Origin: Sphaeroforma arctica JP610
Lineage: Eukaryota
Reading direction: 5' to 3'
Assembly (NCBI RefSeq): GCF_001186125.1
Contig: NW_014040178.1
Coordinates: 22,209-63,453 of the forward strand
Length of the DNA stretch: 41,245 nt
A model generated the notes under the pieces. The model was not told where the DNA came from. It worked only from the letters and a program-made list of their open reading frames with translations, and searched no databases. Numbering within the stretch: position 1 is the first letter of the stretch; each line of letters opens with the position of its first letter. Positions 4,023-41,245 of this stretch are shown here, in pieces. The translations under genes and the position numbers were made by a program.

Positions 4023-4068
<46 letters not shown>

Positions 4069-4126: not shown

Positions 4127-4165
<39 letters not shown>

Positions 4166-9146: not shown

Positions 9147-9244
9147 TGTGTTTGAAATAGCGCAGTCATTTACTGAGCTGAGCGTTACTGATCGATTGGG
9201 TTATTGAGGTAGACTATATATACATATTTATTTATAAACAAATT

Positions 9245-15550: not shown

Positions 15551-15567
15551 ATCTATTCCCTATAGCT

Positions 15568-15940
15568 ACCCCCAACCACGCTCCTCAACCGAATTATGAC
15601 GGATAACCTGGTCCTACTTGGCATTTCTTACTCTGCACTAACCCATTCCACATCACTACACGATAAAGACCCGATCCGAACCACAGAGGTGGGTACGCAA
15701 TTTAGTAGGTCAGAAAGCGAATACGTGGCACACTCGATTGTGTCAGTTTTTTGTCAGCACCGGCCTGAATTGACCCAGTGCATATCCTCCATCGTCGACT
15801 CACTTGGTCCAAGCTTCAACAGGGAATTTACTGACCGCTTCTTCCCATCGATCTTCCCCGAACCACTACAACGGCTATGAGAGCCATACTATAAGTACAA
15901 ACATTGTAACTTAACTCCTTTGAGAAAAAAATATTATCCT
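15568..15940 (+). mobile_element. Short 3' fragment of LINE family A with candidate TSD TATAGCT
   Basis: MTDNLVLLGISYSAL...PSIFPEPLQRL matches the other copies; tatagct at 15561-15567 and 15941-15947. Confidence 0.85.
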
Positions 15941-17039
15941 TATAGCTCCAACTGATGAAACTAGGAAATTCTTTGGAACTGCAGCGTATGAAAAAGGTCG
16001 AACACAAGTTGCAGTACCAACATGTGTGTAAGTATAAATGGATAAACATAAATGTTGCTGCGTTTTTATCTAAGTCAAGTGTGCTTATACATGCAAGAGT
16101 GTCTAGATCCGCGGCTACTTCAACTATGCAGGCCTACGCTAAACTTTGGTACTAACCAGACCTCGACAAATTTATAGTATGCAGTGGGTATTTTGAATGT
16201 GGTCTATATTGTGGCGGGAAAGGTGTACATGTTGCTGCTACAGTGTGGAGTATGACTCAACAGGCATTATGGGCAGATGCCAATGACAATGCTCGTTATG
16301 AGTATGATTCTGTAGTAGCAGCAAACAAAGAGATGGTGGAGAGGGAAATACTTCTGTGCGCTAGTTTACTCTGCAAATCAAAAGTGCCGACGGATAACCT
16401 TACAACAGAGTTTCTAGAGCAAAATGGTCATCGAGAAATCAATGACACTAGCACGACGACAATATAGTCTTACAGGTGAAGTAGCGCGCAATGTGGCAGC
16501 GCAAACGAGTAAAAACTCCGATGCTACAAGTGCCGCTATGAAGAAAGCAGCAGAAGCTACTCGAGTTCTCTTTAAGCTTATAGGTAGTGCAGAAGGACTG
16601 CAAAAAGAATGATCAAACTTTCTTCAATTTGTATGATGAAATTAAAGCAGAGTGCCAATTACAATGAAGGTGTTGTACTAAATAACAGTAATTGATAGAT
16701 TATATCTAGCTAGACAAATAACCTATAGACACAAAGGACCGGACTAAATAATGGAATAGGGAAATTAGTGCGAATCAAACGTCATCATAATGTAGTATCT
16801 AGGAGACAAAAATCTGCGCTACGCTGTATTGACTACACTGATGCCTAAGCAAAGGAGTAGAACGCATGAGATCTCATGTTTAAAAAGTAACCATCGCCGT
16901 CTCTTGCTGTTCATAGTATATGAGTGTCTTTGTTTGAGGAGTTGTGTATATTGGCTTTTTGTCCGTGTTTTGGTAACACTCCTTCAACTCTTACAATATC
17001 CTGTGCGACCGCTCTTTGCGCACCTCTACATCTAGTTTC

Positions 17040-19850: not shown

Positions 19851-20774
19851 CGGTTTTTGTCTTGCATAGTTACTAACTTATTATGCTTCTCATAATTACC
19901 TTAGTTACTGAACAGGGCCATAATTCTGTAAATACATACACACTTTTACTTATATATAAAATTAGAAATGTGAATAAAAGAATAGTTGTTTAAAAAAAAG
20001 TATATGATATTAGACCTGTAATGTCAACCAAGTTTACCTCCGATTTAAAACAATGTTGGTGTTGTAAGCACCGAACTGTTCGGTGATGTTCCTGAGCGTT
20101 AATAAGAGTGCAAGAACTTCTAAGTGTGGGCGATAACTTATAAGTGTGAAAACTAATAAGTTTGAAAAGTTCTAAGTTGTATTGTGCGGTTTGTTGGCAA
20201 ACGGCCGCGCAGACTCGAAAGAAGAGGAGGTTGGTGTACGATTGGTGCTTTGAGAACCGAAGTGCGAGGTAATATGAGCTGGAGGTTGGCAGATGACAAT
20301 ATATGTTGAATGGACTTGTAGGCTCGAAATTGAAAAGATACACGATTTGATTGGCGGCAGGATTCTCAAGGAAATCTTTTGGAGATAGTATAAATACGTG
20401 GCTTTGTTCATTCAAAAAGTTCATTCTGCTAAGGTAGACGTTTATTCAACAACCGAGGAAATAAACCTAAGTTCACCGTTACATTGTGTTTTGAGTCTAT
20501 CTAAGATTACAGACTTTATTAGTCTATCTTTTTTCTTCCCTGTTGCGCCAGTTGAATCTAATAGATATTTTACAAGTACTGGATATTAACAAAATGGCAT
20601 AGAAATTGCTAAGAATAGGTAACTGCATTGCGTTGTAAACTATATAGTGTCTTCACAATTTTCCTTTTTGAAGCAACTGTCTCTTGATAACTTTAGAATT
20701 ATTGAGGTATATAGTAGTTTAGATAGTGCAGGTTTATTTAAGCGTGAACGCACGATTTCTAGCTAAATACTAAT

Positions 20775-23130
20775 TAGGATTAAGGATAGTATTATTTATT
20801 TCAAAAACGATAAGTTACAAAGTTTGTATGTTACAATGTATGATCATATGGTATGGCTCTCATAGCCGTTATAGTGGTTCGGGAAAGATCGATGGGAAGA
20901 AGTAGTCAGTAAATTCCCGTTTGAAGCTTGAGCCAAGTGAGTCGACGATGGAGGATATGCGCTGAATTAATTTGGGCCGGTGCTGATAAATCACTGATAC
21001 AACCGAATGTGCCATGTATTCGCTTGCTGACCTACTAAGTAGCGTACCCACCTCTGTGGTACGGATCGGTGTACGCCGGGTAGTGCCGTGGAATGGGTTA
21101 GTGCAGAGTACGAAATGCCGAGTACGACCAGGTTATCCGTCATAATTCGGTCGAGGAGCGAGGATGGGGGTAAGCCAATGCCGCACCAGACCACGGATGA
21201 ATTCGGTATGTGTTGGCTGGCCTGAATCGGAAGTATCATAGGCGGAACCAACAAGCGCGATGATTTGGTTTGAACCGATATTTGGAAGTAGTACTTCAAC
21301 AGCGTGATTAGCCAGGGTATAGGGAACACCCGTTGATGTGTCAGGAACGGGTGAGGGTACGATGGTTCTTCAACATTCTGGAGAAAAGATCCAAGGTGTT
21401 CGTGGAGGGTCCAGATACCGTGGAAGTCGTGGTACTCCTGTAATTGCTGAAGGAGGTCAGGGCCAATGGGCGGCAGTTTCGGGCCTACCAGGATGCGTCG
21501 AATCAGTTATTGGATGCAGGTAAAGAGGCTGGTAGTGAACTCGTGGGCAGATAGGGCAGAGACAGCCGTCGGTGCGGTAGTCGAGCAATGTGAACATGAA
21601 CGTATTCGTTACAATCATAGCACAGAGCCGGATTGGTGTAGACTCGAAGCATCGATTGAAGCTGTCGTGTCTGGCTGTGTCTCGGTTTGAGGTTGGCGGT
21701 TTACCCATAACCAGTTGGTAGTAGTATTGGCGCCGGGCCATTGCCGCGATCTTCTTGTTGGACCAACGTTTTATTGAGTTCTTCCTGATGTCGTCACAGC
21801 GTTGGCGGAGGGCTACATGGTCGGGTGTACACCCGCCCGTGGTTTTGTGTACAGTTTTTAGGTGAGCATAGATACTGTACGGGAAGCGCAGTGATGGTTT
21901 ATCGTGGGCCCAGGCGGGTTGCGTCAGAGGGGTAAGTGGATTTGTGCTTGCCATTGAGTCGAGTTGTATTCCCAGGCAACCTCCGAGGTAGTCCGCGAAT
22001 GGTCGCGCGGGGAGCAGGCCGCAAAAGTGAAGTAAGTTTGTTTGATGTTTGGGAGACCGAGGGTATTTAGTGCCCGTGATGATGGCTGCTGCTTGGATGA
22101 GTGCTGAGTTAAAGCGCTCGAATAGGGGGTCCAACGCATTCTTCCATATAGGCGGAGCCCAGGCAATAAGGTTCAGCCCATATGTAGCCGTGGATAGGAG
22201 GAATGTTTTGAACATCACCAGTCGGTTGCGGGGGTGTCGCCAGCTGTAGCCATGGAAGCCATAAGCGCGGAAAGAGGCGATACCCAGTGACAATGCTGCA
22301 ACCAGGGATTCCATATGTTTAACGAGGTTGATTCCTGGTACTCCGTGAGAGAGTGGGAACCCCAGGTATTTGGAGTGTTTCGGTTCGGCATGTGTGGGCG
22401 CCAGTTTCAGGAGGAGGTAACGTGTGTTCCAAGGTGCGTCTGCAAACGTCGGCGTGATAAGCTCACCATTTATACAAAGGGTTGGCGCCGCGTGTCGCAG
22501 GTCGGTAGATCGTACTCGGGGTTTAATGACACCCTGTTCGAAGCCAGATTTGCGTCCCCGCGCATCAATGTCATCTAAGAAGGGCTGGAGCAAAATCGAT
22601 CGAGGGGCTTGGATCCGTGTGTCATCGACAAATAAATAAGAGCGGAGGAGCTTGGGCCGAAATTGTGCTAGCGTGACAGCTATGGAATACATGTAGATAA
22701 TAAAGAGCTGGGGGCCGACGATTGAGCCTTGTAAGATGCCATTCGTTCTATGGAATAGAGACAAGAGCGTGCCGCGGTATGTCACTCGGGTAGGGACCCT
22801 CCCAAAGCGTGGGAGAGTGACCTTGTCGTATGCCTTGGTTATGTCCAGACGGACGTCGTTCCACTCCTCTTTTGACTGTGTCTCAGATTCCATGGCGGCA
22901 AGTGCTTGGGTATGACAGGAGTACCGTGATTTGAAGCCAGCTTGGGTAGCATGGGTAGCAGAGCCGGGGTGGCTCGTAATCAGATTAAGAAAGCACTTTT
23001 CAAAGATGCGTCTGACTATTTGCGTAAGCGTGATGGGGCGGAAGTCGGTGGGGGAGGTGATATCTGCATCGGCTTTTTTGGGGTGCGCTGTCAGGAGGCT
23101 GCAGTTAATGGCTGCGAGGAAGGTACCCCG
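20775..23130 (-). mobile_element. Non-LTR retrotransposon (LINE family A), 5'-truncated; RT ORF 21457-22893
   Basis: DFRPITL, QAGF, LDITKAYDKV, GILQGSIVGPQLF, YLFVDD, KYLG motifs of non-LTR RT; small deletion in the zinc knuckle; shared 3' end. Confidence 0.92.
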
Positions 23131-23259
23131 AGGAACTTAAGTTTCCTAAATGTACTCTTAATAGTATGAGGAACTTAAGTTTCCTAAATGTACTCTTAAT
23201 AGTACGCGGAACTTAAGTTTCCTAAATGTACTCTTAATATCACGAGGAACTTAAGTTTC
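23129..23259. repeat. 38-bp tandem repeat, ~3.4 copies, near-palindromic core
   Basis: gaggaacttaagtttcctaaatgtactcttaatagta(t/c) starting at 23130, 23168, 23206, 23244. Confidence 0.95.
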
Positions 23260-23569
23260 ATAAAATGGGTTTTAATGGTTTTATTAATTAATACCTTTTC
23301 TCTTTTACATATCAGATATTTGGACGTGACCATTAAAAAGCCCCAGTAAAATACCAAACATAAGAGTTGGTCTAGTTCTATTAATAGAACTATATTTACT
23401 TTTCAACTTTATTCATATCCGAATACCTCAGTAGCGAGATGGCTCAGCCGAATATAGGTTTCTAGGGACTATTCACGTAGCCTAGTTGATCCTCCGATCA
23501 GCCAACCAGATGTACCAGTCTGATGAAGGCTAAGTCGGTTCACAGTCCATTTCATCCAGTATTCAGAAT

Positions 23570-26500
23570 AAATCATGAGTTCTAACACCACAACGGACAC
23601 GGCACACACAGATCAGTCAATGACTTCTGCTCCGTAGCAAAGAACAAAAGCAGCACAAAGGAGTATACGCACAGAAGTGAGCTCTACTAGCACATACACA
23701 CGAGGAAGCACCAGCTGTACAGCTTGAACTCGACCAGAACAATCGCATACAATGCCAGTGTCACAAGCTTCCTCACGCACTTTTACTCCAAACAATGGGG
23801 AAGGAGCGATGTACATGGATGATGAGCCCACACCAGCAAGAGCACCATTAGATCCAGCAATGAGTAAGTTCAAAGTGGTCATTGACACGACCATTTATGA
23901 TGGCAATGCCTATAGTATATGCATACTGGTATATAAGCTGTATGCACAGAAGTTGACATACAAGCACTCCATAAGCTCCGTAATGCAGTTCACACCCAAC
24001 AACCTAATAGATTGATACCAGAAGTCGATCAGCGGTTATCAAAACTATACAATAAAGCTGTGAAAGGCTGTGATAAAAGTGATCACGATGAGTGTATTGC
24101 AATCAATGGCTTAATGAGCGAGTTAACACTAATTAGATCCCATGTAGGGGATAAAATCTCAGAAACAAAGATGAACAAACTACTCAAGATGAGTGAGTTC
24201 TCTAAGTGGCCAACACACAAGTATGTGAGTATGGCTGATTGTCGTGATACACTTGAGTTTGTATCTGTAGTAAAAGACTTGTTTGCGAACACAAACATGC
24301 CATTGGTACAGTATCTATCACTCGTACAAGAACTGCCCCGACAAACAGCCACAACAGAGGTACCGCGCACAGCACTCAATAATACACGTAGTTCCCAACA
24401 GCTTTGGAAAGACTGCACTGATGGGGAAGTCTACAATATATTAATCATTGACAATTTGCGTCACACTCCAGTAAACTATCTGCTGGAGAAATGGCTCAAC
24501 GACTTCTATAATGCTCGACGAGCAGCACGATTGCGTCGCACAATGCTTGAGCTGGAGAAACGATGCAAGGGCACGGGGAGATAGTCCATTAACATGCAAT
24601 TTCTCAAAGTGTCACGTTATCAGTCACTAGTCATGTATGGACAACAGGCCGAGACTGATAGAATATTGAAGGCGCAAACGAAGCCTGATGGTAGTAGCGG
24701 ACCCTTGTCTGACATATCAGAGAAGATATTCCATGAACTCACTGAAGACTTTGTATCAGACAAGCAACCATAACACATGCTAATCACGATCGGTATCGCA
24801 AACGAGCGAGAACCGCACCCATCCCAGACCAGAGAGTCAATCGTCCAAGACTTGACACACCCCCAGGGGGTCCACCCAGAGAGATGGGTCAACCCAGAGG
24901 GGGGGGGGGCGGGGACCACAAGTAGGACAAGGCCGAGGTCGTCCTATGGGACAGGGTACTTACACCCCAACACCGCGAGGACCACGACCTTGTCCATACT
25001 GCCGTTCAGACCCTTCGTCACATGCGTTTAACAAGTGCCCAAAGAAGAAAGAAAGCAAACGTCAGAAGCAGCAGCTAGGGCAGCGCAGCAATCCCAACCG
25101 ATACATGTAGACCAGTTGACCATTACAAATGGCAACAAGGTGCAAGCGATGGATGAAGAATCTATAAAGCTTGGTGGGCGGAAGTTAATATGGTAAACAT
25201 GGTAGGCATTGTGAATGCACACACTGATGAAAAAACGTTGCTAAGAAATGCAAATGACATTGCTTACCCACCTTATTCTTTACTTTCTAATCCACGAGAC
25301 CAAAGATTGCACATAGACATACAAATGAATGGCACCACATACAACGCACTAGTAGATTCAGGAGCACAACGCTCATGTATGGATCGCAGTTTAGTAACTG
25401 AACTATACTTGTCTGTAAAATCACAACCTGGGTCTACATACAGATCGCACAATCAGATGTACGAGTACAACGCACAGGTTCCACAGACGTGTGTGATATT
25501 ACCTATGGCGGTAGATAAACATCAAACTGCTTTGGGGTACTCGACTTCCCAGACAAGAAATCACCAATCCTTTAGGTATGGATATTTTACCATACTTGGG
25601 CATATATCTAGCTGGGATAATTGATCCACTCAAACCGACATATGCTAAATGGGAATCACTTCTCACACCACATGAAGATGACCCTGAAAATGAGCGAGAA
25701 GGATTCAGAGAATCACTCTCAGACTTATTAGACCAGAACGGCCAGATCCCGCCGGATGTACACTGCAATTTGCCAGGATCGGTAGTGGAGATACCAAGTC
25801 AAGAGGTCAAAGCAAAGAACATTCGTCACGCTAAAGTGAACTTTGTTCCACATAAATACATGCCACAAACAGATGACAATGTTCAAAAATGGGTCAAAGA
25901 CGGGCACATATACAAGCGAATAGCACCCACACAGGCGAATCTACCATTACGGTGTGTACACAAAAATAGCCAACACTTTTAACTTTTTCTTGGAGAGGGG
26001 CACAATACTCATTCAAGTCAACTCCGTTTGGACTCCACTCGCTAACAGCACAATTTCAACGAGTGATGGCCAACCACCTCATCGACATTAAAGGGGTACA
26101 AGTATACGTGGACGACAGTAGAGAAACACAGACAAACAGTACGAGAAGTCATCAAAAGACTTAACGCAGCCAACTTCAGGCTAAATCACAACAAATGTGC
26201 GTTTGCAGTCAAGAAGTCGATATATTAGGCGTCAAAGTTACAACAAAAGGGCTCAAAACAGACCCCGAGAAACAAAACACATGATTGACAGGCTACTGCC
26301 AATAACCAAACGTGACCACATAGAGCAATCTGATTAGTAAACTACATGCAGGACTATATTCCCTAGTTCGCGCATATAACGAAACACTTCCGCAATCTCA
26401 TGAAAGGAAAAATGAATCAGAATATAGCGATTCTTCGGACACCAGAACTCATTAAGAAATAGGAATAACTCAAAGATGTTATTGCATGCTCCGCAATATT

Positions 26501-26600
26501 GGCGTATTCAGTAGATGGAGTACCGTTTCAAATCATGAACGACACAATCGCTGTCCCAAATCATAGATGGAGTCAGAAGGGATATACTCTATTTTTCAAA
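23570..26600 (+). mobile_element. Decayed Ty3/Gypsy retrotransposon (gag, protease, RT, start of RNase H), truncated at the Copia
   Basis: ALVDSGAQRSCMD protease (~25345), PFGL..FQRVM, YVDD (~26104), PFQI RNase H start. Confidence 0.88.
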
Positions 26601-28139
26601 GGGCTTAAAAGGTAACGGTTTGAAATGCGGTACTAGGAGGGGTTGTTGTGTGCTCTCCTGGAAGCTGTGTCGTAGTGTGTCCCGTATTGTGTGGTGATGG
26701 AGCTGAAGATGTCGTGTCCATGGTGGTATTTGTTGAACACTCCCCTGGAATAGAGGTATCGTCAGCAGGTTGATCCTCGATACCGTGTTTGTTTGCAGTG
26801 ATATAGGTTTGCATCTGGCGGGCGCATTGTCTCGTCATTCGCATTTTGTTAGGTAGATGCGGTCCATTGAGCGTGTACAAGTAAGAGACCGCGAAGGGCG
26901 CGTGATTCGGGATGTCGGGCAATGTGGGTTTGTAAAGTGTTGTTAATAGTGTCCTCCTTGTCTGGTGTCGCGGTCGATGGTGCTTGTGCAGTCGATGCAG
27001 TGTCGGGAGTAGGTAGGAGCGTGCGTGGCGTAGCGTATGTGGTTGGTGTGGGCAGGAGGGCGGTTTGAGCAGGTAGAGGATCCTGGTGTGTATCAGCTGA
27101 GATGGTGACATCGTCGGTCTGTGTGCCAACCGAGGAATAGGTAGGTGTTTGTGTCTCGCATGTAGTGTCTTGATCGAGGTGTAACGCCATAGTCAGCTCA
27201 CGGATTATGGGTACGTCCTTTGTGTCTGTGGCAAAGTGTGGGACGGGTGTGTTCCCAACCATAGTCCAAGTCGGAAAGACACGGTAATTGAATTGAACGT
27301 CGCTGGAGTGACATATTTTACCTGTCTTGAGGTTAAGTATTCGGCACTCATCGTGGCCTATATATACCCCAATATTGGCGCGGTCGTCTAGTTTGCCATG
27401 GCGTGACTGATTGATAAATGCTACTCGACATTCAAAGAGGCGCATGTTCTTAATGCGGTCAGTTGGTTTAAACCCCCAGAACACTTCCCAAGAGGATTTT
27501 TGGTCTCAGTTGTGTTTGTTGTCGTGGACAGAGTTCTTGAGAGCTGCGTATTGGATATCTTCGGCCCACATGTTGTCGGGCATCTTGGCTTGCTTCATAT
27601 CGCTGAGTATAATGTCATGTATGACACCATTTGCACGCTCGACTAAGCTATGTAATGCGGGCGTTGCAGTGGGCACGTAGAGTGTTTTTACATGTTCCTG
27701 CGTGTTAACCTTGTTGAATTCTTGAGAGATGAATTCCCCGCCACGGTCACATTTGAGCTCGCGTAGCTGTGCAAGTTTATCCTTCCCGATTTCAGTGTAG
27801 AATTGATCTAGTGCGCCAGTCGCGTCGTCCTTGTGCTGGAGGTTATAGACTAATGTGTAGCCACTGATGGCATCTACGGACTTGATATCACAGGTATAAC
27901 CACTAGGGGTTGTGGGCAAGCCCGTATGTAAGTCAACATGGAAAACGGTTCCAATAGGAGGAAGGTATCGACTCTTTGCTGGTATGTCGGACTGGTCTGC
28001 GGCGCATTTTCCCTTGTACACATGGTGTACAAGAGGTACGGTCTGTCAGGTAAGCGATGGTATCTGCCTCAGCTGTGAGCAGTTCTGCGGTGGGAAAAGC
28101 GGCATGTTTGATGTTGCCAAGTCGTGCTATGCAGATGTA

Positions 28140-28638: not shown

Positions 28639-28947
28639 GTGGACAGAGTTCTTGAGAGCTGCGTATTGGATAGCTTCGGCCCACTTGTTGTCGGGCATAT
28701 TGGCTTGCTTCATATCGCTGAGCATGATGTCATGTATGACACCATTTGCACGCTCGACTAAGCCAAGTAATGCAGGCGTTGCAGTGGGCACGCAGAGTAT
28801 TTTTACATGTTCCTGCGTGTTCACCTTGTTGAATTCTTGAGAATGAATTCCCTGTCACGGTCACATGTGAGTTCGCGTAGCTGTGCAAGTTTATCCTTCC
28901 CGATTTCAGTGTAGAATTGATCTAGTGCGTCAGTCGCGTCGTCCTTG
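28639..28947 (-). repeat. Duplicate of Copia integrase core segment 27524-27833
   Basis: ~310-bp near-identical direct repeat. Confidence 0.9.
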
Positions 28948-28949: not shown

Positions 28950-30000
28950 AATGAGTGGAATAGTGCGTCGGAAATGGCTGAAAACAGTATACATTAGTGT
29001 TGCAAGACTAAAGATTTTGAAGCATTTAGTGATTTGATACCAGTAAATCAGCCACATGTGAAGAAGTATCCTAACTACAAGCTTGCAAACTGTAATATTG
29101 AATCGAATGACACCCAAGCTTTCAGCAGTGCTCAAATTAGTAGAATTCATAGAATGTCTACTATCTTCATGGACCAGGAAGTGATGAAATGTCCCTCCCA
29201 TGTACAATTTTGAAAAGAAGTTCGGCCACTGTAGGTTGTGGAGTACTTCTTTTATTTTCAGTAGTAACAATCTGTCTTGCTCATATTGATAGTGACTTCC
29301 CTAAAGTCAAGGTATTTGCGGTTTTTAGTGGTATGTTCACCTGGGTGTCTTTTTACGTATCTAATTTTTTAATGTTCTCTTCTGTCTTTACGTGCCCATT
29401 TTTTTTAACGTTCTCTTCTGTTTATAGCATGCTGGGTAGTGCTCGCAGTGCCTATTACTCTGGTAAATGTTTAGGTATACTTCTGAATTGATTTTTCAAA
29501 TATCTACATGACATCGAAAGCGATGATGTCATCGTTCACTTTCTAAAAGAGGCTATAATATCAACAGTTATTCGCCATCGTAAGTACGACCTCCCATCTT
29601 ACGGTTCATATGCGTCATACGAGCAAGTACATATCGTTTTTCGAGACTCGAGAAGTTCACGATCACGTCTGGTTATAGGGTAGTGTCTTCCAGTTAGGTT
29701 CGTGAGCTTTCGGTATGGTACATTATTCACAAGGCTCGCAGAAGTGTATGAAAGTATTTATTCGCTTATCCTTAAGGTTGGTACTTTAAGTAGCTCAAAT
29801 ACTTACAGTATTTCCACTATACTATCGTCAGTTGAGAAATCAACCACGGCCTTAGCATTCCCAAGCTGTTTAATAAATCTTGGCTCAGCATGCCCTCGCT
29901 GCATACGCTCAGTGTTACGTGCTGCTTGCGTTAAGATAGTGTCAATTTATTTTTCTAAATATCAATGATTCATCAACACTCAAACTTTTAAACCCTCATA
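28950..30000 (-). mobile_element. Highly decayed Ty3/Gypsy fragment (RT N-terminal part)
   Basis: KIKEVLHNLQWPNFFSKLYMGGTFHHFLVHEDSR resembles the Gypsy RT FSKLDL..GFHQ..V..E.SR motif. Confidence 0.55.
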
Positions 30001-30283
30001 AGGTTCAAGTCAAGCAAGAGACGTTCCTCTACGCTTGCATACACATACGTATGTATCCGAATCGTGCTTGTCTAGCTTTCACTGTATCATAATTGTATAG
30101 TGATGACCTAAGTCGCGCTTACCAGGGTGACGTGGTAAGTGAGTGTCGATATTACGAGGCTCGTACGCCTCATCGAGTTCCATAAGATCATACATTCGTT
30201 CAGGGCTAGGTCTGTCCAAATAATGGTCTGTGACCGCTTCCGAGCAGTATAGGTTGAAACCTGGGTTTCTAGCCCCTTTTCTA

Positions 30284-30356
30284 GTATTAGTAGCACTAGC
30301 GGTTAATTTTCTTGCTGGTAATTGAGAAGGTCCCGGGTTCGAATCTCAATTGTTGA
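30284..30356 (+). pseudogene. Degenerate tRNA-like sequence (tRNA pseudogene or SINE head)
   Basis: A-box-like TAGCACTAGCGG (30291-30302), AGGTC variable loop, B-box GGGTTCGAATC (30335-30345); acceptor and anticodon stems pair poorly. Confidence 0.45.
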
Positions 30357-32037
30357 ATCAGATTTCTTCTTTGATATGGGTTTCAGTGACAGCGGCTATT
30401 TTGCTCCTTCAAGAACTCATCCACGGGACTCTTTTTGCGCCGAGAGTTCAAAGATCCGTCTAGCCGTTCCTGAGGAATGGGGTCCCCAACATCGGCCCCG
30501 ATACCTGTGGCAGTATCCGCAGACTGATGCTTGGCTTTCATATGCCGTCGGATTCGTGTTGATACCTCCATTCGTTGAAGAGTTATAACGTCCCCAACAT
30601 TAAGTTATTTGGCCCCAACATTCAATGAAATAGATACCTTAACACCGCCTAGGAGTTCCGTAGTTTCCGTAGTTGTGCGAAGCTCTGTATCCGAAGAGGC
30701 AGGCTCCAACAGTTCTTCGTCAGGTTTTTTCCTTGACTCGGCTTCTCCTCGACAGTTTCTTCGGCAGGCTTAAATGTCGAAGGACCAGGCGTGTCCTCTG
30801 GGACCTCAGCAGGCTTCGCAGGTTTAGCGCTGGCGGCCACATTCTTCTTATTAGGTGCTGTAGGCATACTTGATACTTGGCTTATCAAACGATAGTTGAA
30901 AATAGTGTTACTCTCGTCAGTTTACAGACAGCTATCGCTACTTTAAATGAGAATATGTAAACTTCAGAGGAAATATTACAAGTTCTATTATGTTGAAATA
31001 AACATTGAAGACCGGTCAAGTTAGTTAGGATTGAGCAGTTGTAGCTTGTGTAAGAATGATCAGGTTTGCCTCTTGGTATAAACCTTAACACCCGCGAGCA
31101 CACGGAACATACCTCTAGCATCTTTACTACTTGTTTTCACAAGAATTACTATGGGTTCATAGCTCACATAGCCTGATTGTACATAGGTGTTGGTGAGAAC
31201 CATGTTAATACTTTAGTAATTATAAATAAAAGTCCTTTTGAACAAAATTTTATAATAAATAGAAAAAGACTTTTCGAATGTTCGATATTGACGAGAGGAC
31301 CAACACTATAAGTAATAGTTCAGACTTCGTACAGTTTATTAATTACATCTGCTATTGTTTCCAAATAGAGTCAAGTATATGAATCTTGCCAAATACTCAA
31401 ACTATATGAGCTATAAAGTGAATTTGGAGCATTTTGGATCTATTGGAGAAATAACTTGTATAATTATTTAAATAGATAAGAACGAATGACTTCTCTTATT
31501 TGATCTTGAAATTTCAATCTAACCGGAGTGTTGAACTTGCTAAACTCTCTCTCTGCTTCTTTTTAGAATATGGGGTATAACTTCTAGTCAATGGCTAATA
31601 AAGTCATTGGCATGTTCGTTTCCAAGGTAGCATACTCTTGGTCTTGTGTGTCATTTGTTTCCTTTAGGGGTTTATTATAATTTCTGAGGTTTTGGTATTC
31701 ATATGTTTTCATGCAGACGTTACAGCATATCTGGCATTTAGTTGATCACGTTTGAAAATATGACCTGAGACATTTTTGTTAGTTTTTTTTGTTTTGTTTG
31801 TGGAATATACTTGTGTGGTACAGAGTGTACTTTAGTATGTCACATTTGTCTGACATTGATTCCATTTACTGCACAGTAATACTGTGACTTTTGAGCCAGG
31901 TAGATTGCAATGTATTTCCGGAGCTATCACTTAATTGGTTTCTAGAGTGACTCTCGAAATCCATCTTGTTCATGTCCTGGGTCATCCTCGTGTGGTGTGA
32001 GTAATGATTCCCGCTTTGCATCTGTTGATGTGAGTGG

Positions 32038-32038
<1 letters not shown>

Positions 32039-32131
<93 letters not shown>

Positions 32132-32228
32132 NNNNNNNNNNNNNNNNNNNNNNNNNNNNNNNNNNNNNNNNNNNNNNNNNNNNNNNNNNNNNNNNNNNNN
32201 NNNNNNNCGGTTCGTTCGTCGTAGTACG

Positions 32229-32282
<54 letters not shown>

Positions 32283-32285
32283 ATA
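32039..32285. repeat. (TA)n/(TG)n microsatellite enclosing an assembly gap (N 32132-32207)
   Basis: Directly visible. Confidence 0.95.
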
Positions 32286-33193
32286 TGCCTATATATGGGA
32301 TACTGCTCATACCTAGTAGTATAGGTGACTTTTTGTCTAGTTTGCTCAGTACTTTGCTGATATGCCCAGTACTTCGAAGCACTTTGAGGTCTTCCGCAAT
32401 CCGTATTCAATGTCATATACTTCAGTCGTGCCTGTCCGTTCGACGCTCGCATCTATTTGTGCCAGTAGTATATAGCCAGTTTGTGTTTGACTGATAGCTA
32501 TTGTTATGTTACTATACTTTATCCATGCACGAGCGTTGTGATTCTGAGTCTACTAGAACACTATATGTGTTTAAGTGTAATCTTTGATCTCGTGGTTTGC
32601 GAAGCAAGGATGAACGTTGGTAGTGATTATATTTCGCCTTTATTCCGCGCATCACTCATGTTAGATTATTCTATCTTCTCTGTAGAATTGGCAGCTTCCT
32701 TAACCAGCGCTGTCACCTTCATGGGGCATTGGTTAGGGTGATGGGAGACAAATATTCCTTTCCATTATGTACAAGCTCGCACTTCTCTTGCCTCTTTCTC
32801 ACCATGAATCTGATGTCGTTCTCTCGGACGTTTGGCGATTGACAGTACTGTATTTGTTGAATGGTTGACGTGCGATATGCTATGTCTCGCCTATACCTTT
32901 ACTGCAACGCGTATACATGCTTCTGAATTATCTAAAAAATACATTTTGCTTATGTTTGGTAAGTGTCTGTCACTTCCACAGGCTTCTTGCTCGCTTTAAT
33001 GATGTCATCTACTTTCTCTTGTTGCCCGTAGCAAGTGAATGCTTTATATCGTGCTACTTTGAGAAGTTGCACATGAATTGACTCTTTGTCTCTGTCTCTG
33101 TATCTCTACTCTAGTATTTTCATCGTTCGATACTTGCGCTCCGTAGGTACATAAATATTCAGTACTTTGTTCTCCATGTCGTTGTGCAACATC

Positions 33194-33459
33194 TCTGGTA
33201 GATAGTCTACAGGATGATGTCTTGGTCTGTCAAAGATGATTCTATTCAAATACTCTTGGTCGGCGGAATCATCTATATCATTGAGTACCCTCTTAGTCTT
33301 ATCTGTCATATCCAATAGTACTCTTTCTGGTAGATAGTCTACAGGATGAAGTCTTAGTCTGTCAATGATGATTCTATCGAGCTGCTATAGGTCGGTGAAA
33401 TTTCATTGAGTACCTCTTTAGTCTTATCTGTCGCGACTGTCTTATTCAATAGTACTCTT
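33194..33459. repeat. Diverged tandem duplication, ~132-bp period, in Gypsy gag
   Basis: tctggtagatagtctacaggatga... at 33194 and 33326. Confidence 0.85.
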
Positions 33460-33591
33460 ACAAGTAATTTCTTCAAATGCAGAACACAATCTGCCAGTAA
33501 TCTTGCCGCACTCTGTATTAGGCGTCCCTTAATACGACATTTAATATATAATGGACATAGAGTTCGATGCAGGCAGTTAGTGGTAGCTGAT

Positions 33592-33783
33592 TGTTGTTAG
33601 ACAAAAGTGGCTTTATTTACACCTCTTCTGAGGGCTTATATACATCACCATTTATTCGCCTATATATTCTGGCGGTGTATGAATCTTTTGGCGGGGTGTC
33701 ATATTTGTTGACACTGACAGTCCTGTGTACCGAACTGTTATTGCATTCCTGATATTCGCATATGATGATTTGTTATAGCCTAA
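33592..33783 (-). mobile_element. Probable LTR (3' LTR of the 33.8-38.4 kb Gypsy)
   Basis: On the - strand: PPT-like AGGGGAG (33786-33792), then TATATAA, AATAAA and a ...TAACA end; no partner LTR found. Confidence 0.5.
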
Positions 33784-33789
33784 TACTCC

Positions 33790-36700
33790 CCTGAAAATGT
33801 CAGAGTGTGAAGAGAGAGAATGCAATCATTGCATTTCATTCTCCCCTGGATTGGTTCTCGACTGTGTCACCATGCTCTGAGGGTACTCCAGTATGCATGG
33901 ACTTAGTGTGGCGCGAGTGTGTAGGGCGAGCGGTATACGGCTGTGCTGACGTAGTCTGCTTTGATGACACCTTCTTGTTCGGGTTCCTTAATCTGATGTA
34001 CCCGTATATTGTAGTTTAGAGCCCTAGGCGCCCTTGCACGATGCATACGCACAGTCTTGAAACCAACCCCATAAACACCTATATGGAAACATCCCGTTCA
34101 CGAAGAACGATTGACGCAAGACACTTTTAGGGTTTTAGGGTTTTCTATATTATGCGCACTAGAACCGTCAATCGGCGTTCCATTTGCGCCTTGTGTGTTT
34201 ATATGGTATGCATTTCTTATATGGCACATGCCCGATACGAGTACTAACGGTTCCATTGCGACATAGCAGAACTTGCTACCGTTATCAGAACATAATACAC
34301 CCATGGTCAGCGAAGACTTGGCAACATAATCCAGCCACATTCTACGTCATCGTGTCCTCTAGAAGATAAAACAAGTCAACCGTGACGTCATATTAAAAAA
34401 AAGTGGCATACGCAACGGCCGCCTGTGTGCTCAGACATAGGCAGGTCAACCATATCAATGTTGACCGTGCGCCATGGGACATCTTTGGCCACTTTCTTAA
34501 GCGGTGCGAGCTCATAACGTATGATCTGTTTAAGCTCACAGTCTATACATGACTGATATACTTTGGCAATCAAAGTTGTCAGCCTGGGATGCGCTATATC
34601 ATTTCGCTTAGCGTTTTCAAGAGCGTCTACTACATTTTGATGCTTCAGCTTACGATTTTACGTCAGCCAAGCGAGAATGTTATAATCATTCTGCTCTCCA
34701 GTATAAAGGTAGGGTGTTGAAAATCCATTTCCGTGTTCTCTACGTCTGTAGCGTTTTCAATCTTGTAGTGTTTTCAGACTCCTTTCCTCCTTTTGTTTGT
34801 GCGGCTTTAGTGCGCTCGTATACATTAGCCACACTCGACTAATTTAATAGTCGCATAATGAGTGTGTATACTCCAGGATTATCTTTCATTAATTCCTTTA
34901 GAAAAAGTCACTGAAAGACTTCGGGCTTCGACTTTTATGTTCTTAAATACAGTACAAGCTAGAGATTGACGCTTCTTGCCTGCAGTGCCAGTAGTAGATT
35001 GTATTCCTTGTGCACAGACTTCACGTGCTGTATTGCCCTTGCACTGATTTATATTCTATTTGTTGGAGGGTGAAATCTCCGACTCTGCGATCTTTTTAAG
35101 AAAGGTCTCAGATGGTGTCCTTGAGGTTGTTCCTTTTGGATGTCTCCAGTGCGTCTTTTGGATTGCTCGGGTACCCTGATCGAGGAAGGAATCTACTTTC
35201 CTATCTAGATATATTGGCTCGCATTGTACCTTGCTTATTAATTTATTGAGCCACGGAACTAATTTCCGTAAGGAGTAACGCAACATTATGGTGGCTTTGT
35301 GTGTATATATGAGCGTATTTTAATAACTGGGCAATTAACTGCCATGGTGGATTGGCCCACGCATTATGTTTAGAGATATCTATTTGAAAAGCTTCTCCTA
35401 AGGATGATTAAATGTTCTATATTATGGTGTGCAACAAACATATCGATTTAATGTGGCCAAACTATATTTTCAGCCAGCTCGAACCATCGTGGATTACACT
35501 TCTAATCGGTGGCGATGAGCTCTCGTACTTATTAAACCTGGAAAATATATCTGGAAAATTGTTATGCATTTCGGGTAAATGTTCTATATCAAAGTGGAAC
35601 TTAGAAGTTATGTCATCCCATATATTAAGTAACTGAGGGTCTGGCTTCATCTCTTTCATATAACGAAGAGACTTTGGTTACGCATCAGCGTAGAAGCTGT
35701 TCCATAGAGAAAATCTTTAAAGTGTGTCCTAGCTGTAACAATAACTAGTAATTATTGTTTAACAGTTGAGTAATTCAACTGTGATGAAATTCATAACTCG
35801 ACTAAAGAGTTGTATTCAACTCGGTTTGTTATCGATAACCTGATGTAGTACTCCTCCAAGTGCTAAGTCGGAGGCGTCGGTTGCTATTTCGAATGGCACA
35901 TCATCCACTGGCCCTTGTACTCAAAATGCCTCATCACACTCCTTAGTCCACAGTTCTCCTAACATATTTTTTTGTGACATCTTAATAGTCCGAAAGATTT
36001 TAAGTAATCTGCTAGGTGTGGTACTCTATCTGAAAAGGAGTTTACAAGCCCACACATACTATTGATATCTTCCCCAGTAGTTGTTGTTTGCCAACCTAGG
36101 ATATGTTCTACCTTTCTGAGGTCAATTTTTATACCTTCTCCGGATACGATATCCTGAAAGTTGTATTTCACTCATAACGAAAAGATATTTCATCTCGTTA
36201 ATCATGAAATTTTGTACGTTGAGTCTTTGAAGGACTTTCCTTACTATTGCAGCGTGATCTTGCTTAGTCTTTAGAAAAATGACTGTGTCATCGATATAGA
36301 CTTGAACGTTAGGCTGTCTGCAAACATTTCTTCCACTACTTGTTGGAAGAACGCAGGTAAAGAGTGTAACACAAAAGGTGCTCTTTTGAAACGTTATAGG
36401 TTCCTCTTCCATAATAAAATAAAGTATTTACGATGTGGCTCATATATCTTCATTTGATGTTATCTTTCTGTCAGGTCTATAGTTGTAAACACTGTAGCGC
36501 CTTTCATTATCTTTGATAACTCGGTTTGTATGCGGTAAGTGAAGGCTAGGAATAGGCAAAAATTTATTCATTGTGCTCATATCTAAACACACTCTGCCCT
36601 TCTTATTCTTAAATGAACCGTCAGAGTTATGTTAGTCAGCATCTAGTAACACCAAGCTAACTGGCGTTTGTTGATAGTTCATTCTATCTCTCTATCTGCT

Positions 36701-38450
36701 ACCCACTTGTCTACCTTTTCTTTTACTACAGTCTCATGTCTCCAAGATACACAGTTTCTTGATACACATTTCAGCTTGGTAAAGTCTACATTGGTTAAGT
36801 CAAGGCTGACATATACGTCATCAAAGTGAAACTTAGCCCAGTCACCAATATTAATCTCTTTATTTACAAGAATAAAGTCCATAATCTTGCTTTCAAAGTC
36901 TGGGATTAATTCCTTGACTGTATTGGACGGTGATACATATGATTTCATACAGTTATCGTTGATTTGTTCTTTAAATGATATACGTTGTTAAGTAAACCAG
37001 TAACGGTATGTGTACTTTTGTGACATCTTCAGTATCACAACCTGGGTTGTGATATTGCAACCATCGGCCACATACTTGGACGTCTTCTCATCTGCTACTA
37101 AAATAAGGTGAGTAGTTCGTGTTCTTCGTTCGATATCTTTTAAAGCAAATCGATCGGATATACATTTTTTTTAAATTGAGATCAGTCAATACAAGGACTT
37201 TATTTCCGATGCATTATACAGGGAGATTTACACACACGTTCATTTAACAGTTCGTTGTATTGTCGCTGTAGGGATTGCACCCGGTAGTACCTTCACTCCA
37301 ACTTGATGTTGGTTTTCTTGTCACAAGACTTAGCATGATAGTCATTAGTCTTGTCGCACATGTTAACAAAGTGCTTACAAGTTGGCATATGTCGCCCGTT
37401 CCAGTACCGTTCGAGGTCAATTGATACATATCGTATCCACACTTCATATGCACCACTCATCTCTTAGTATGCTTGTATGGTGTTTCCTTTTTAGCAGGCG
37501 TTTTCTTATCACGTTGAGGTTTCCGGACAGTATCCAACGGGCGTGCTGATGGAATCGAGTTGCTCTCGTGGTTTCCTGACTGACCACCTTTTCTTTTAAG
37601 GTGACACGGTCCAAAGGATAGAAAATAGTCTTATCATAAAACTGATCCCAACGGAGACAAGTCAAGTGGAACTTCTGTATTCTCTTGGCCATTGTCCTGT
37701 GTTTCTTTAGTATACTTGCGACGAAGATCGATGTACAGCTTTTTGCGATCATTGCTGCCAATGGTTATGCAGAACATATGCATGGCTAGCAACGCATACC
37801 ATCGCGACTTGCCATTAGTGGTTATGTCAGGTCCGACTAAGTCCGCATCGAGCTTCAATATAAAGCTCAATACGGCAGTGCTCGGTGGTGGTGGTGCCAG
37901 GATCGAACGTATAGTAAATTAGGTGAATAACTGAACCTACCAACCTAGTACTATTTCCCAACCTAGTACTATTTCACCTAATTTATTACAAACGTAGTCT
38001 TGGGCTTTGCATATCTTTGTTCAGCAAGAATATCAACAACAATCGTAGTAGTCGACTTTTTCTTGGTCATGGATATCATGAGCGATTTTCATTGTGACCG
38101 TGACTTCAACGGCAAATCCGTTAAGTACATCTACATCCGCAGATTGGAATACATTCTTCGCGGGTTAATACAACACAGTACGATCAACACGAGCAAACTC
38201 TAAGTCGTCTGCTTGTTTACGGAAAGCTTTAGTTATGTTCGTCACACAATTATATAGTGCGATCAAGGCTTGTCCCTTACTGGCTATTGTTAAGTCAGCT
38301 GAATTTAGTTTAAACAACGTCGCTTTCTCCCACTTGGGTACTTCTGGCAAAGTACCCTTGCCTGCCGCGGAGTCTATATTATCCTCGAGTATGGAATACT
38401 CATCTCCAGAAGAGAATACAACTGGTGTCAATCTCTCCTAATCTTTAGGT
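33790..38450 (-). mobile_element. Decayed Ty3/Gypsy retrotransposon (gag, RT, RNase H, N6-MTase-like domain, integrase)
   Basis: VYIDD RT (~36290), PFEIATDASDLALGGVL and HLPEMHNNFPDIFSR RNase H, CIDC..PWRTVNIDMVDLP and SDNGSKF integrase; 5' limit uncertain. Confidence 0.88.
35130..35490 (-). pseudogene. Frameshifted N6-adenine DNA methyltransferase-like domain in Gypsy Pol
   Basis: Reconstructed across frameshifts: SSW..FG/PH*IDMFVAHHN (IDMF 35436-35447)..GEAFQIDISKHNAWANPPWQLIAQLL (NPPW 35342-35353)..KATIML..PWLNKL..SFLDQG..HW. Confidence 0.8.
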
Positions 38451-39909
38451 ACTGATTGTCGAAGTGCGGGACCTCTGGAATCCCGCTGTCGGCTTGGCAC
38501 TCAGATTTCTATGCTCTGAATCGTCATTCTTTTAACGGCGTTTTGCATAGAGCTTGCAGTGATGTCGTCGGAGACAGTTTGTTTAAGTGCTTTGCTTTCT
38601 CGCCAGAATCATACATGCGATCTGTTTGATCAGCTACTTGCTTCTCCTATCGAGGTTCTCATCAGTCTACATGAGCATTGGTCCGGTAAACTTGGTTACT
38701 GAGTCGGTCTGGCCTTTAGGGCTTGATACTTTGTCATTTATCAATCTTTTACATACAGATGGTTCATTATCGCCTCGGGGTTTGACATCGATTGCTGGGC
38801 GACTTTCCTTCTAAATTTCCTTTTCAGAAAAAGCGCACAAGGGTAAGCCTTAGAACCACCACAAGTGTCGCTACTCGTTTTCATATATGTAAACTTCAAA
38901 GTAGAGGCAATAGTTGGCCCTCTAGCTCTCTCCTTGGTGGCGTTGCCTTATCTTTCTGCAAATTGTTGTCTTGACCGAATTCTCCAGCTACATCCATTTT
39001 TTTCTCGGTGTAGAAATACGGCCTACGGTCAGTCTAAAATATCAAGATCAAATGAGATAACACATTGGTTTTTATTTGTATTTAAAATATTTTAATTCAA
39101 GTTCTTTTTCCAATATTCCCAAAGTGCTCTAAATTCACTTTGATGGCTCCAATAGCTTGAGTATTTGGTATGACTCATTTACTTGGACCTATTTGAGACG
39201 ATAGTAGATGTAGGATATTATAAACCAAATTTTATAATCTCTGAACTACTACCTACAGGTTTTGGTCTTATTGCCGATCTCCAAAATCCAATACGTCTTT
39301 TTCTTTTTTTTAAACTTTTCTTCAGATGGAACTTTATTTATATTCGCTAATGTATTAACTTGAATTACGTTCTTATGTCTATCTACAAATTAGACATGTG
39401 GTCATGAACACTTAGTACTTCTTGTGAAAATTAGTCAATAAGGAACAGCTAGAGGTACGTCCTGTGTGATCGAGGATATTAAGGCTCTTACCAAGAGGCA
39501 GTCCCGATCATTCTTACACAAGCTACCACTGCAAAATCCTAACTGACTTAAACTGTATCTCAGTTCATATAACAAAGTTTAAAACATAGATATATCCATC
39601 GAAGTTTACCTCGGCTTCATTTACGTTGCTGAGATGGAGTAAAATCTTTCATCGTTATCGTACTTTAAAAGTAAGATTTGCACTATTTTCTTAAGCATTA
39701 GTCAAGGTAAGAGCTTTTTTTCTGTGGTAGTCGATATCTACTACACTTAATCAGCTCAAAAAGTCAATACTTTGCAGTTTTAAAATTTGTAAAGACCAGT
39801 CTCTCAAACCGATATTAACGTGCCGAATCTGTTTAAGAATTTGAAGTTTCTTGGAGTTCAATTCAAAAGTAGAATGTACAAAAGTAGCCGAATGATAAGG
39901 TTAGGTATG

Positions 39910-41188
39910 CCTCGTGCGTTAGACATGAATTACTGGTTGTAGCATTGTCCCAGGGTATCGCCCCTTTCCGCGCTTATGACTTCCATGGCTTCAGCTGGCG
40001 ACACCCCCTCAACCGACTGGTGCTGTTCACCCGACCATGTAGCCCGTCGCCAACGCTGTGACAACATTAAGACAAACTCAACAAAACGCTGGTCCAACAA
40101 GGAAATCGAGGTAATGTCCCGGCGCTAGTAGTACTACCGACTGGTCATTGGTAAACCACCAGCCTCAAATCGGGACAAAGCCAGACACGACAGCTTCAAA
40201 CGTTACTTCGAGCCTACACTAATCCGGCTCTGTGCTATGATTGTAACGAATACGTACATGTTCATATTGTTCGACTATCGCACCGACGGCTGTCTCTACC
40301 ATGTCTGCCTTGGTGGCCACAGATTCACCACCAGCCACTTTAGCTGTATTCAATAATTGATTTGATGCATCCTGGTAGGCTCAAAACTGCCGTCCATTGA
40401 CCCTGACATCCACCAGCAATTGCAGGAGCGCCACGACTTCTACGGTATCTGGACCTTCCACGAACACCTTCCTCAACACGATGGCTAGCAATACGCCGCC
40501 TCAGCTTTCTACGACGGACTCTTCAACGACAGGCAATGATATAAAAATGGCTGACATCGTCAAAGAGGAGAGCCCAGTAGTATTGACCGATGATGAACAA
40601 TGTTAGGACCAATGAGGATGACGCTCTTCAACCCACAAGGACTCAATATGGACAACGCAGCACATACAGATAAGTGTTTGAACGTTATATCGATTTTAAG
40701 TCAGGTTGATGTTATGTGTGTGGTTGAAACCTGGCATAACACCACATTTCTTAATTATATACACTCGAACACACGCTATCATATACAACATCACACTACA
40801 CGGCATAATATCTTACACCCTTCACACTGTGGTATTGGTATCTTTTCCAAACACCACCCATCGAATTTTCAACTTGTACACTCTTCACCGTACGCGGTGT
40901 TCTTTGTGTGCTTTGGCGTTCATATGGCCGTGTTCTACTTCCACTCAAATCGCTTACTGAAGAAGACGTCAGGCGATACATTAATCCCCCCGAGATTGGT
41001 GGTTTCCAACCAGATGTCGTGTGGGGAGATTTCAACTTCAAAGCTCGGAAGTATGGCCATGTATCTACAAATCACGGACTCCCATCAATCTTTCCTGAAC
41101 CACTACAGCGACTATGAGAGCCATACCATATGTTCATACATTGTATCATACATACTTGCCATTTTTGAAATAAACAATATTATCCCTA
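39910..41188 (+). mobile_element. Rearranged LINE family A copy containing an ORF1-like tail and an APE endonuclease
   Basis: 39910-40470 matches the RT C-terminal region; 40600-41070 has LFNPQGL, VVETWH, GIGIF, VWGDFN (APE family); 41080-41188 is the family 3' end. Confidence 0.85.
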
Positions 41189-41245
41189 ATGCCTTAGAAT
41201 AAATAAATGCGAACGTAAATTCTAAATATAGTGTAAAATCGATAT

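What the first reader, a model, noticed from the sequence alone, without database searches (positions are those of the whole stretch)
35130..35490. Hidden NPPW-type adenine methyltransferase between RNase H and integrase of a Gypsy element
Seen: right after the RNase H end (HLPEMHNNFPDIFSR) the - strand gives, over about three frameshifts, SSW..FG/PH*IDMFVAHHN..GEAFQIDISKHNAWANPPWQLIAQLL..KATIML..VPWLNKL..DSFLDQG..HW. A linker and the integrase CxxC/core follow. The catalytic stretch is too short to appear in the ORF track. Established: [DNS]PP[YFW] is the amino-methyltransferase catalytic motif, and an RNase H-then-MT order is typical of DIRS elements. This element, however, has a DDE integrase, a PPT and an LTR-like end. 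Inference: a Gypsy lineage with a formerly active 6mA writer in Pol.
Basis: partly seen in the sequence, partly recalled or inferred. Interest (0 to 1): 0.85.

Follow-up and report, generated by a model that had tools for sequence, protein, structure and literature searches.

The report
Dead Gypsy retrotransposon with adenine methyltransferase
This is a broken copy of a Gypsy-type retrotransposon whose polymerase gene carries an adenine methyltransferase domain between RNase H and integrase, a real combination already described in a 2026 preprint, and the domain likely marked the element's own DNA.

Summary
Observation confirmed; the kind is already in print. The - strand at 35516-35140 encodes a Dam/PCIF1-like amino-methyltransferase (NPPW at 35353-35342), broken by 3 frameshifts and 2 stops. 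An intact relative, P0081 (1376 aa, one ORF: RT-RNase H-Dam-H2C2-rve), is colinear with 37143-34182. The methyltransferase is 62% identical (78/125), against RT 54% and RNase H 53%. RT and Dam trees agree and place the element with integrase-bearing Ty3/Gypsy proteins, apart from DIRS-like rows, so it is not a nested DIRS piece. This copy is dead (19 frameshifts, 13 stops, integrase cut short); its LTR ends are unverified. The host is likely Sphaeroforma. bioRxiv 10.64898/2026.05.21.726589 describes such 'DAM-LTR' Gypsy elements, also in S. arctica, and this scan noted the kind before in another genome (e1-9950609). Activity is inferred only: the preprint's E. coli assay was negative, and the closest solved fold is the RNA-cap enzyme PCIF1. 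Less known: the same window holds a Copia-type element with a Dam between the HH and CC halves of the integrase zinc finger (28709-27933). I found no paper on that.

The parts
35140..35516 (-). Dam/PCIF1-like amino-methyltransferase domain, pseudogenised (3 frameshifts, 2 stops); SAM-binding-type IDMF motif near 35447-35436, catalytic NPPW at 35353-35342
   Evidence: 78/125 identical to P0081 583-715; P0081 hits Pfam PF05869 E 7.4e-6, 26.2 bits, below the 28.1 cut-off; profile 40 bits vs null max 18; motif roles recalled from amino-MTase literature
36179..36634 (-). Reverse transcriptase (YIDD), broken
   Evidence: PF00078 E 6.4e-9; 81/150 identical to P0081
35924..36178 (-). RT connection region
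   Evidence: 55/85 identical to P0081
35537..35923 (-). Ty3/Gypsy-type RNase H, broken
   Evidence: PF17919 E 1.4e-6, PF17917 E 1.8e-4; 67/127 identical to P0081
36635..37143 (-). Protease C-terminal part and pre-RT region of Pol
   Evidence: 75/170 identical to P0081 1-195; the protease active site was not identified
34688..35139 (-). Linker between methyltransferase and integrase
   Evidence: 44/150 identical to P0081
34508..34687 (-). Integrase HHCC zinc finger (CxxC kept, first His lost)
   Evidence: 18/60 identical to P0081, whose 913-959 hits PF17921 weakly, E 0.043
34182..34507 (-). DDE integrase core, two Asp kept; cut off before the Glu; C-terminal part missing
   Evidence: 46/109 identical to P0081; no alignment beyond P0081 residue 1077
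33992..34129 (+). Antisense inserted fragment of a Copia-type Dam (YGNIPF), close behind the integrase break
   Evidence: 58% aa to the window's Copia-type Dam ORF, E 5.9e-12; 85/127 nt identical to 28444-28315
33786..33847 (-). Two candidate polypurine tracts followed by an LTR-like start; unverified
   Evidence: purine runs of 9 and 7 nt; no 5' LTR partner above shuffle level
37634..38437 (-). Possible gag remnants; unverified
   Evidence: two ORFs of 94 and 90 aa upstream of pol in the same orientation, no credible Pfam hit

Best explanation
The segment is the methyltransferase domain of a dead Ty3/Gypsy retrotransposon whose intact relatives make one Pol polyprotein (RT-RNase H-Dam-integrase), and the domain likely put N6-methyladenine on the element's own new DNA. 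Shown: the anatomy, the shared descent of Dam and RT, many related copies in the runs laid, and intact NPPW and DMF motifs. Inferred: Pol is packaged and cut in the particle, so the enzyme would sit beside the reverse-transcription product. It would use SAM to methylate adenines in the cDNA or RNA-DNA hybrid, and the host's AMT1 system would then keep the mark after integration, so new insertions land in 6mA-marked, transcription-permissive chromatin (the preprint's model). This copy can do none of it. Anatomy and class about 0.95; DNA-6mA mechanism about 0.55.
For: Colinear intact relative P0081; the Dam is 62% identical against RT 54%, RNase H 53%, integrase core 42%, linker 29%, which fits selection on the domain. 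Three more metagenome proteins have RT-RH-Dam-rve in one ORF: P0006, P0080, P0082. Dam tree: window sister to P0081 (100/98), in a clade with P0010, P0080, P0035 (98/96), the same partners as in the RT tree. Summed contig depth in run X1 over the MT bins is 47,549 and 66,460, against about 140 for single-copy contigs, 30,505-52,091 for three RT-region bins and 12,419-23,990 for two integrase bins (not a copy number). The AF2 model of the P0081 domain (pLDDT 91) matches only SAM-dependent methyltransferases among the rows shown. Preprint, whole main text read: DAM-LTR insertions in S. arctica, A. whisleri and E. gracilis are more often 6mA-methylated than other LTR elements, and are more expressed in the two ichthyosporeans.
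Against: The preprint's expression of eukaryotic DAMs in dam-deficient E. coli gave no rise in 6mA, and its 6mA link is a correlation. The best structural matches are PCIF1/CAPAM RNA-cap methyltransferases (6irw E 3.9e-5; TMq 0.58-0.64 over the top five rows), ahead of M.TaqI (E 0.021). Iyer et al. (PMC4738411, passages) place DIRS1 MTases in the PCIF1 clade and call them likely inactive. P0081 falls below the Pfam Dam cut-off. One AU test, with the window held on the DIRS-like side, was not rejected (p 0.164 on RT, 0.142 on RT+RH). One single-copy contig joins 35086 to 35613, across the whole domain. The host assignment is indirect.
Confidence: 0.55

Rival explanations
1. Same anatomy, but the enzyme works like PCIF1: it N6-methylates RNA, for instance the cap-adjacent adenosine of the element's own transcript or of the packaged template, to change its stability, translation or recognition.
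For: Foldseek top hits for both Dam models are PCIF1/CAPAM, followed by KsgA/DIMT1 rRNA enzymes. Four relatives also hit Pfam PCIF1_WW weakly: P0011 and P0022 among 30 scanned, P0070 and P0075 among 27. Iyer et al. put the DIRS1 domain in the PCIF1 clade. An RNA substrate would explain the negative E. coli DNA assay.
Against: The domain is about 135 aa against about 490 in the PCIF1 structures, at 12-15% identity, so PCIF1's extra parts are absent. The PF05869 name and the 6mA enrichment of DAM-LTR insertions point to DNA. No structure of a PF05869 DNA enzyme came up, so the library may favour PCIF1 by default.
Confidence: 0.22
2. The domain is kept for binding, not catalysis: a SAM- or nucleic-acid-binding module that positions template or integrase, or mimics a host factor; the 6mA on DAM-LTR copies would come from host AMT1 alone.
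For: Iyer et al. hold DIRS1 MTases likely inactive; negative assay; the Copia-type and P0006 versions read NIPF or NPIW instead of NPPW.
Against: NPPW is exact in 6 of 8 Gypsy-group rows, the window included; the other two have NPPY and NIPF. The D and F of the DxF motif are invariant or nearly so in a 33-row alignment.
Confidence: 0.19
3. The MT segment is a DIRS fragment nested in this one Gypsy copy, or the RT/RH belong to a DIRS element.
For: RT-RH-MT order is the DIRS pol order (PMC3266345, passages); one contig joins across the domain; the weak AU constraint was not rejected.
Against: P0081 has the same order in one open frame and is the window's nearest row for both RT and Dam. Best tblastn bits to the window's RT region: P0081 228, six other Gypsy-type rows 55-85, best of 19 DIRS-like rows 34.7. 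Window plus its best DIRS-like row as a clade is rejected (p 2.5e-8). The weak constraint only moves the window to the base of the Gypsy side. The skip also removes the last 26 or so RNase H codons, so it is not an empty ancestral site.
Confidence: 0.02
4. The motif is a chance reading stitched from three frames, or an assembly artefact.
For: No single frame hits Pfam Dam; two database searches with a stop-read-through frame found nothing.
Against: Scores lie far outside the shuffles; contigs with 0 differences bridge RNase H to NPPW in 4 of 4 runs.
Confidence: 0.01

Closest known systems
DAM-LTR retrotransposons, Ichthyosporean lineage (Fernandez-Moreno et al., bioRxiv 10.64898/2026.05.21.726589; whole main text read, figures and supplements not seen)
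   Same: Ty3/Gypsy RT, a Dam-like domain with the Asn-Pro-Pro triplet in Pol, DDE integrase, no chromodomain hit in P0081, and a likely host in one of the three species named (S. arctica).
   Different: No difference in kind was found. This copy is dead. The text does not say where the DAM sits in the ichthyosporean elements, and I could not compare sequences, so membership of that exact lineage is untested. The word 'copia' does not occur in the main text.
DIRS1-like and PAT tyrosine-recombinase retrotransposons (RT-RH-MT pol; PMC3266345, passages)
   Same: MT directly behind RNase H; homologous domain, 28-33% identity in short stretches to DIRS-like P0009 and P0014.
   Different: RT groups with Gypsy; a DDE integrase follows in the same ORF; no tyrosine recombinase or inverted ends were seen.
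PCIF1/CAPAM cap-specific adenosine N6-methyltransferase (PDB 6irw, 6irx)
   Same: Closest solved fold of the P0081 domain model.
   Different: 12-15% identity; about 135 aa against about 490; embedded in a retrotransposon Pol; substrate unknown.
Cytosine-methyltransferase retrotransposons (de Mendoza et al. 2018, PMC5890265, passages)
   Same: A retrotransposon that carries a DNA-methylation enzyme.
   Different: A C5 cytosine enzyme, structurally unrelated to Dam-like enzymes according to that paper.

Membership tests
Ty3/Gypsy LTR retrotransposon | RT groups with Ty3/Gypsy rather than DIRS | tested here: met
   100/99 with rve-bearing rows; P0081's best PDB hits are Ty3 7q5b and 4ol8. The 19 DIRS-like rows were labelled by architecture only; one of two AU constraints was not rejected.
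Ty3/Gypsy LTR retrotransposon | Pol order PR-RT-RH-IN with a DDE integrase | tested here: met
   RT, RH and IN are colinear with P0081. The window copy lacks the catalytic Glu and the integrase C-terminus; the protease site was not seen.
Ty3/Gypsy LTR retrotransposon | Two LTRs with PBS, PPT and target-site duplication | tested here: inconclusive
   Only short purine runs; no 5' LTR partner. The copy is old and interrupted, and no genome was held.
DAM-LTR (preprint class) | Dam-like domain with the NPP triplet inside a non-DIRS LTR-element Pol | tested here: met
DAM-LTR, Ichthyosporean lineage | Dam and RT fall in the preprint's ichthyosporean clade | not testable with these tools
   The preprint's sequences are in supplements that are closed. 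The host is inferred from seven S. arctica proteins among the relatives of a neighbouring element.
DAM-LTR (preprint class) | Raised 6mA and expression of insertions | not testable with these tools
   No methylation data. Two guessed-RNA runs held nothing and one held contigs of relatives at about 82-90% identity; this shows neither expression nor silence.
DIRS1-like retrotransposon | Tyrosine recombinase and DIRS-type RT | tested here: not met
   RT is not DIRS-like. No recombinase family was hit in the element's frames scanned or in P0081; not every frame of both strands was scanned.
DNA adenine methyltransferase (active enzyme) | Catalytic [DNS]PP[YFW] and SAM-binding motifs on a class I MTase fold | tested here: met
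   NPPW and DMF are present; model pLDDT 91 with MTase fold hits. Motif roles are recalled.
DNA adenine methyltransferase (active enzyme) | Methylates adenine in DNA | not testable with these tools
   The only published test seen was negative.

The most novel reading that the evidence does not exclude
The 'Dam' of these LTR elements is a minimal PCIF1-like RNA methyltransferase that marks the element's own capped transcript, and in Sphaeroforma it moved on from Gypsy into Copia elements, where it landed between the HH and CC halves of the integrase zinc finger. The Copia part alone (real and not yet reported) I put at about 0.6; the RNA-substrate part at about 0.22.
Probability: 0.15. Interest if true: 0.75.

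Novelty: already known. Interest (0 to 1): 0.3.

Why it matters
For the finding itself the gain is modest: it is one more, dead, copy of a class that the 2026 preprint says it reports for the first time, most likely from a species it studied. It does add an intact single-ORF candidate (P0081) with the RT-RH-Dam-IN order for the enzyme test that has so far failed, and a structural hint (PCIF1) that RNA substrates should be tried. If the neighbouring Copia-type element holds up, adenine methyltransferases have entered a second LTR superfamily, by a route that the preprint's RVT_1-based classification would likely miss (my inference). That would strengthen the case that hosts with 6mA select for the domain.

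Tried and rejected
No genome was held, so sister copies, LTR pairs and target-site duplications could not be pulled. Two homology searches with one window frame read through its stops found nothing (98 and 60 candidates); the frameshifts explain this. Pfam on single frames missed the domain. A pairwise search with the Copia-type Dam did not detect the Gypsy domain (best E 36). Self-blastn and local alignment found no 5' LTR. Rfam had 0 hits in 30000-41245. No RNA holder was listed; runs X22 and X23 laid nothing. The first AU constraint was uninformative. The last block returned only zeros (a script fault) and was redone. VIA fold searches and Atlas look-ups did not complete, so there is no independent structural or Copia-label check from them. 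Rows dropped from trees: RT, 5 cluster members at 90% identity plus P0079, and also P0086 and the LINE row; Dam, 38 rows used where 73 full domains were found, keeping those with a known architecture. P0013 was labelled DIRS-like, but a protease-like motif follows its Dam, so that label is doubtful. Literature searches gave no paper on Dam in Copia; subscription papers, Repbase and the preprint's supplements were not seen.

Full report
Observation. The - strand from about 37150 to 34180 is a decayed pol gene. RT (PF00078, E 6.4e-9) and Gypsy-type RNase H (PF17919, E 1.4e-6) are detected directly, but none of the three single frames over the finding hits Pfam Dam, and the bare motif occurs 3 times in the window's six frames. 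Significance therefore needed homologues.

Finding homologues. Two searches with a window frame read through its stops failed. A second, unbroken Dam-like ORF at 28709-27933 (PF05869 E 0.0037) served as query and returned 77 representatives. A profile from 65 of their domains, run with frameshifts allowed, gave two peaks in the window: the query itself (125 bits, circular) and 35395-35143 (40 bits; 200 shuffles, mean 9.9, max 18.0). One hit, P0010 (RT-RH-Dam), led to three long proteins among 1817 candidates. One of them, P0081, is an intact close relative of the window element: 1376 aa, one frame, RVT_1, RT_RNaseH, Dam, H2C2 (weak) and rve.

Anatomy. P0081 aligns colinearly from 37143 to 34182. 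Identities: pre-RT 75/170, RT 81/150, connection 55/85, RNase H 67/127, methyltransferase 78/125, linker 44/150, zinc finger 18/60, integrase core 46/109. The methyltransferase spans 35516-35140 and scores 334 against a shuffle maximum of 58. It is as well kept as the core enzymes and far better than the linker, which fits selection while the family was active. The copy has 19 frameshifts and 13 stops over the aligned length; 3 and 2 of them lie in the domain. Homology ends just before the integrase's catalytic Glu. Close behind lies a 138-nt antisense fragment of a Copia-type Dam (33992-34129). The PPT and LTR claim could not be verified: two purine runs of 9 and 7 nt, and no 5' partner above shuffle level.

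Not an artefact, not a one-off. In 4 of 4 runs a contig with no differences spans RNase H to NPPW (35341-35883). Summed depth at 80% likeness over the two MT bins is 47,549 and 66,460 in X1, against about 140 for single-copy contigs. Three RT-region bins reach 30,505-52,091 and two integrase bins 12,419-23,990; other pol bins are lower. These sums are not copy numbers, but they show that the domain is repeated at the level of RT. Against: one single-copy contig joins 35086 to 35613. It also drops the end of RNase H, so it is a later deletion or a poorly aligning copy, not an empty ancestral site.

Placement. In RT trees the window is sister to P0081 (98/95 with a LINE row, 99/96 without) inside a group of Gypsy-type rows (100/99), apart from 19 DIRS-like rows; the bootstraps had not fully settled. 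The DIRS-like label rests on architecture, not on named references. Holding the window on the DIRS-like side was not rejected (p 0.164 and 0.142), but that constraint can be met by moving it to the base of the Gypsy side. Pairing it with its best DIRS-like row, chosen, was rejected (p 2.5e-8). P0081's best solved relatives are Ty3 Gag-Pol and Ty3 RT. In the Dam tree (38 rows) the window is again sister to P0081 (100/98), with P0010, P0080 and P0035 next (98/96), as for RT. Domain and RT have travelled together.

Host. Seven proteins (ranks 1-5, 7 and 29 of 77) are Sphaeroforma arctica JP610 proteins, among 10 looked up. They are relatives of the neighbouring element, at 29-59% identity. The window is therefore likely Sphaeroforma; this is indirect.

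Mechanism. The P0081 domain folds confidently (pLDDT 91, pTM 0.87). Foldseek's best matches are PCIF1/CAPAM (E 3.9e-5), then KsgA/DIMT1, with M.TaqI weaker. NPPW is intact in the window and in 5 of 7 other Gypsy-group rows. I commit to the preprint's model: a Pol-borne enzyme that would methylate the nascent cDNA or hybrid so that host AMT1 keeps new insertions 6mA-marked and transcribed (about 0.55). All catalytic steps are inferred. The preprint's evidence is a correlation and its E. coli assay was negative. Iyer et al. place DIRS1 MTases in the PCIF1 clade and think them inactive (passages). An RNA substrate (0.22) and a binding-only role (0.19) stay open.

Known or new. Fernandez-Moreno et al. 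(bioRxiv 10.64898/2026.05.21.726589; whole main text read; figures and supplements not seen) report DAM domains in Ty3/Gypsy elements, with at least four transfers from DIRS and an ichthyosporean lineage that includes S. arctica. The finding matches this class. Whether it is that exact lineage needs their sequences, which lie in supplements I could not see. A place look-up and a sequence look-up gave nothing.

Beyond the finding. The ORF at 28709-27933 reads WHRRLGH, then a whole Dam, then CTPCVQGK, and is followed in another frame by rve (E 1.3e-4) and SH3_retrovirus (E 1.1e-9); the HH part hits gag_pre-integrs (E 0.0022). S. arctica proteins show the same layout: P0007 has HH, Dam and CC in one sequence at 29% identity, P0002, P0005 and P0029 have HH-Dam, and P0003 has Dam-CC. 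The Copia label rests on these Pfam hits and on recalled motifs; no RVT_2 is linked to this copy. These Dams group with Gypsy Dams (98/87), which suggests a Gypsy donor, but all rows descend from a search with this query and the tree is unrooted. The model folds like the Gypsy domain (pLDDT 84). The preprint's main text has no 'copia', and searches gave no report of it.

Verdict. Real, correctly read and correctly placed, but already described as a class. Interest 0.3, part of it owed to the intact relative and the Copia-type neighbour.

Noticed in passing
window 28709-27933 (-), with rve 28045-27506 and SH3 27505-26849: Copia-type element with an unbroken Dam-like domain (YGNIPF) between the HH and CC halves of the integrase zinc finger. 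The same layout, whole or in part, is in S. arctica proteins P0002, P0003, P0005, P0007, P0029. Few related copies (depth 300-730 against about 140). No report found in my searches.
   Followed up: partly
window 33992-34129 (+): Fragment of a second Copia-type Dam copy inserted antisense close behind the break in the Gypsy integrase; a short TTTTAGGG doublet lies next to it near 34130-34148.
   Followed up: partly
window 28639-28947 and 27524-27833: The Copia-type integrase core is duplicated (95% identical) upstream of the HH-Dam-CC block, where the protease would be expected: a local rearrangement.
   Followed up: no
P0045 and P0013 (database proteins): Other Dam positions in LTR-like polyproteins: P0045 has H2C2-rve and then Dam at the C-terminus; P0013 has Dam upstream of a protease-like motif.
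   Followed up: no
window 23937-26540 (+): Another decayed Gypsy-like element (gag-like ORF, aspartyl protease PF13975 E 1.9e-6, RT remnant) that ends near the Copia-type element.
   Followed up: no
window 18836-19895 (+): Copia RT remnant (PF07727 E 1.5e-6) and RNase H-like ORF; not linked to the Dam-bearing copy (other strand, about 7 kb away).
   Followed up: partly
window 21457-23136 (-), 13663-14712, 15567-15942, 20779-21831, 39917-41190: Several copies of a LINE-like element (RT PF00078 E 1.3e-15; endonuclease PF03372 at 40597-41202), 80-97% alike.
   Followed up: no
window 1316-7756 (+) and 8181-9200 (-): Host genes: a WD40-repeat gene in several exons and a single-ORF tandem-PDZ gene.
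   Followed up: no
window 23091-23279; 33194-33459: A 38-nt tandem array (about 4 copies) and a roughly 130-nt tandem duplication downstream of the candidate PPT.
   Followed up: no
window 39023-39549 and 31018-31528; 39150-39362 and 17367-17578: A high-copy repeat sits where the Gypsy 5' LTR would be and has partial copies elsewhere in the window.
   Followed up: partly
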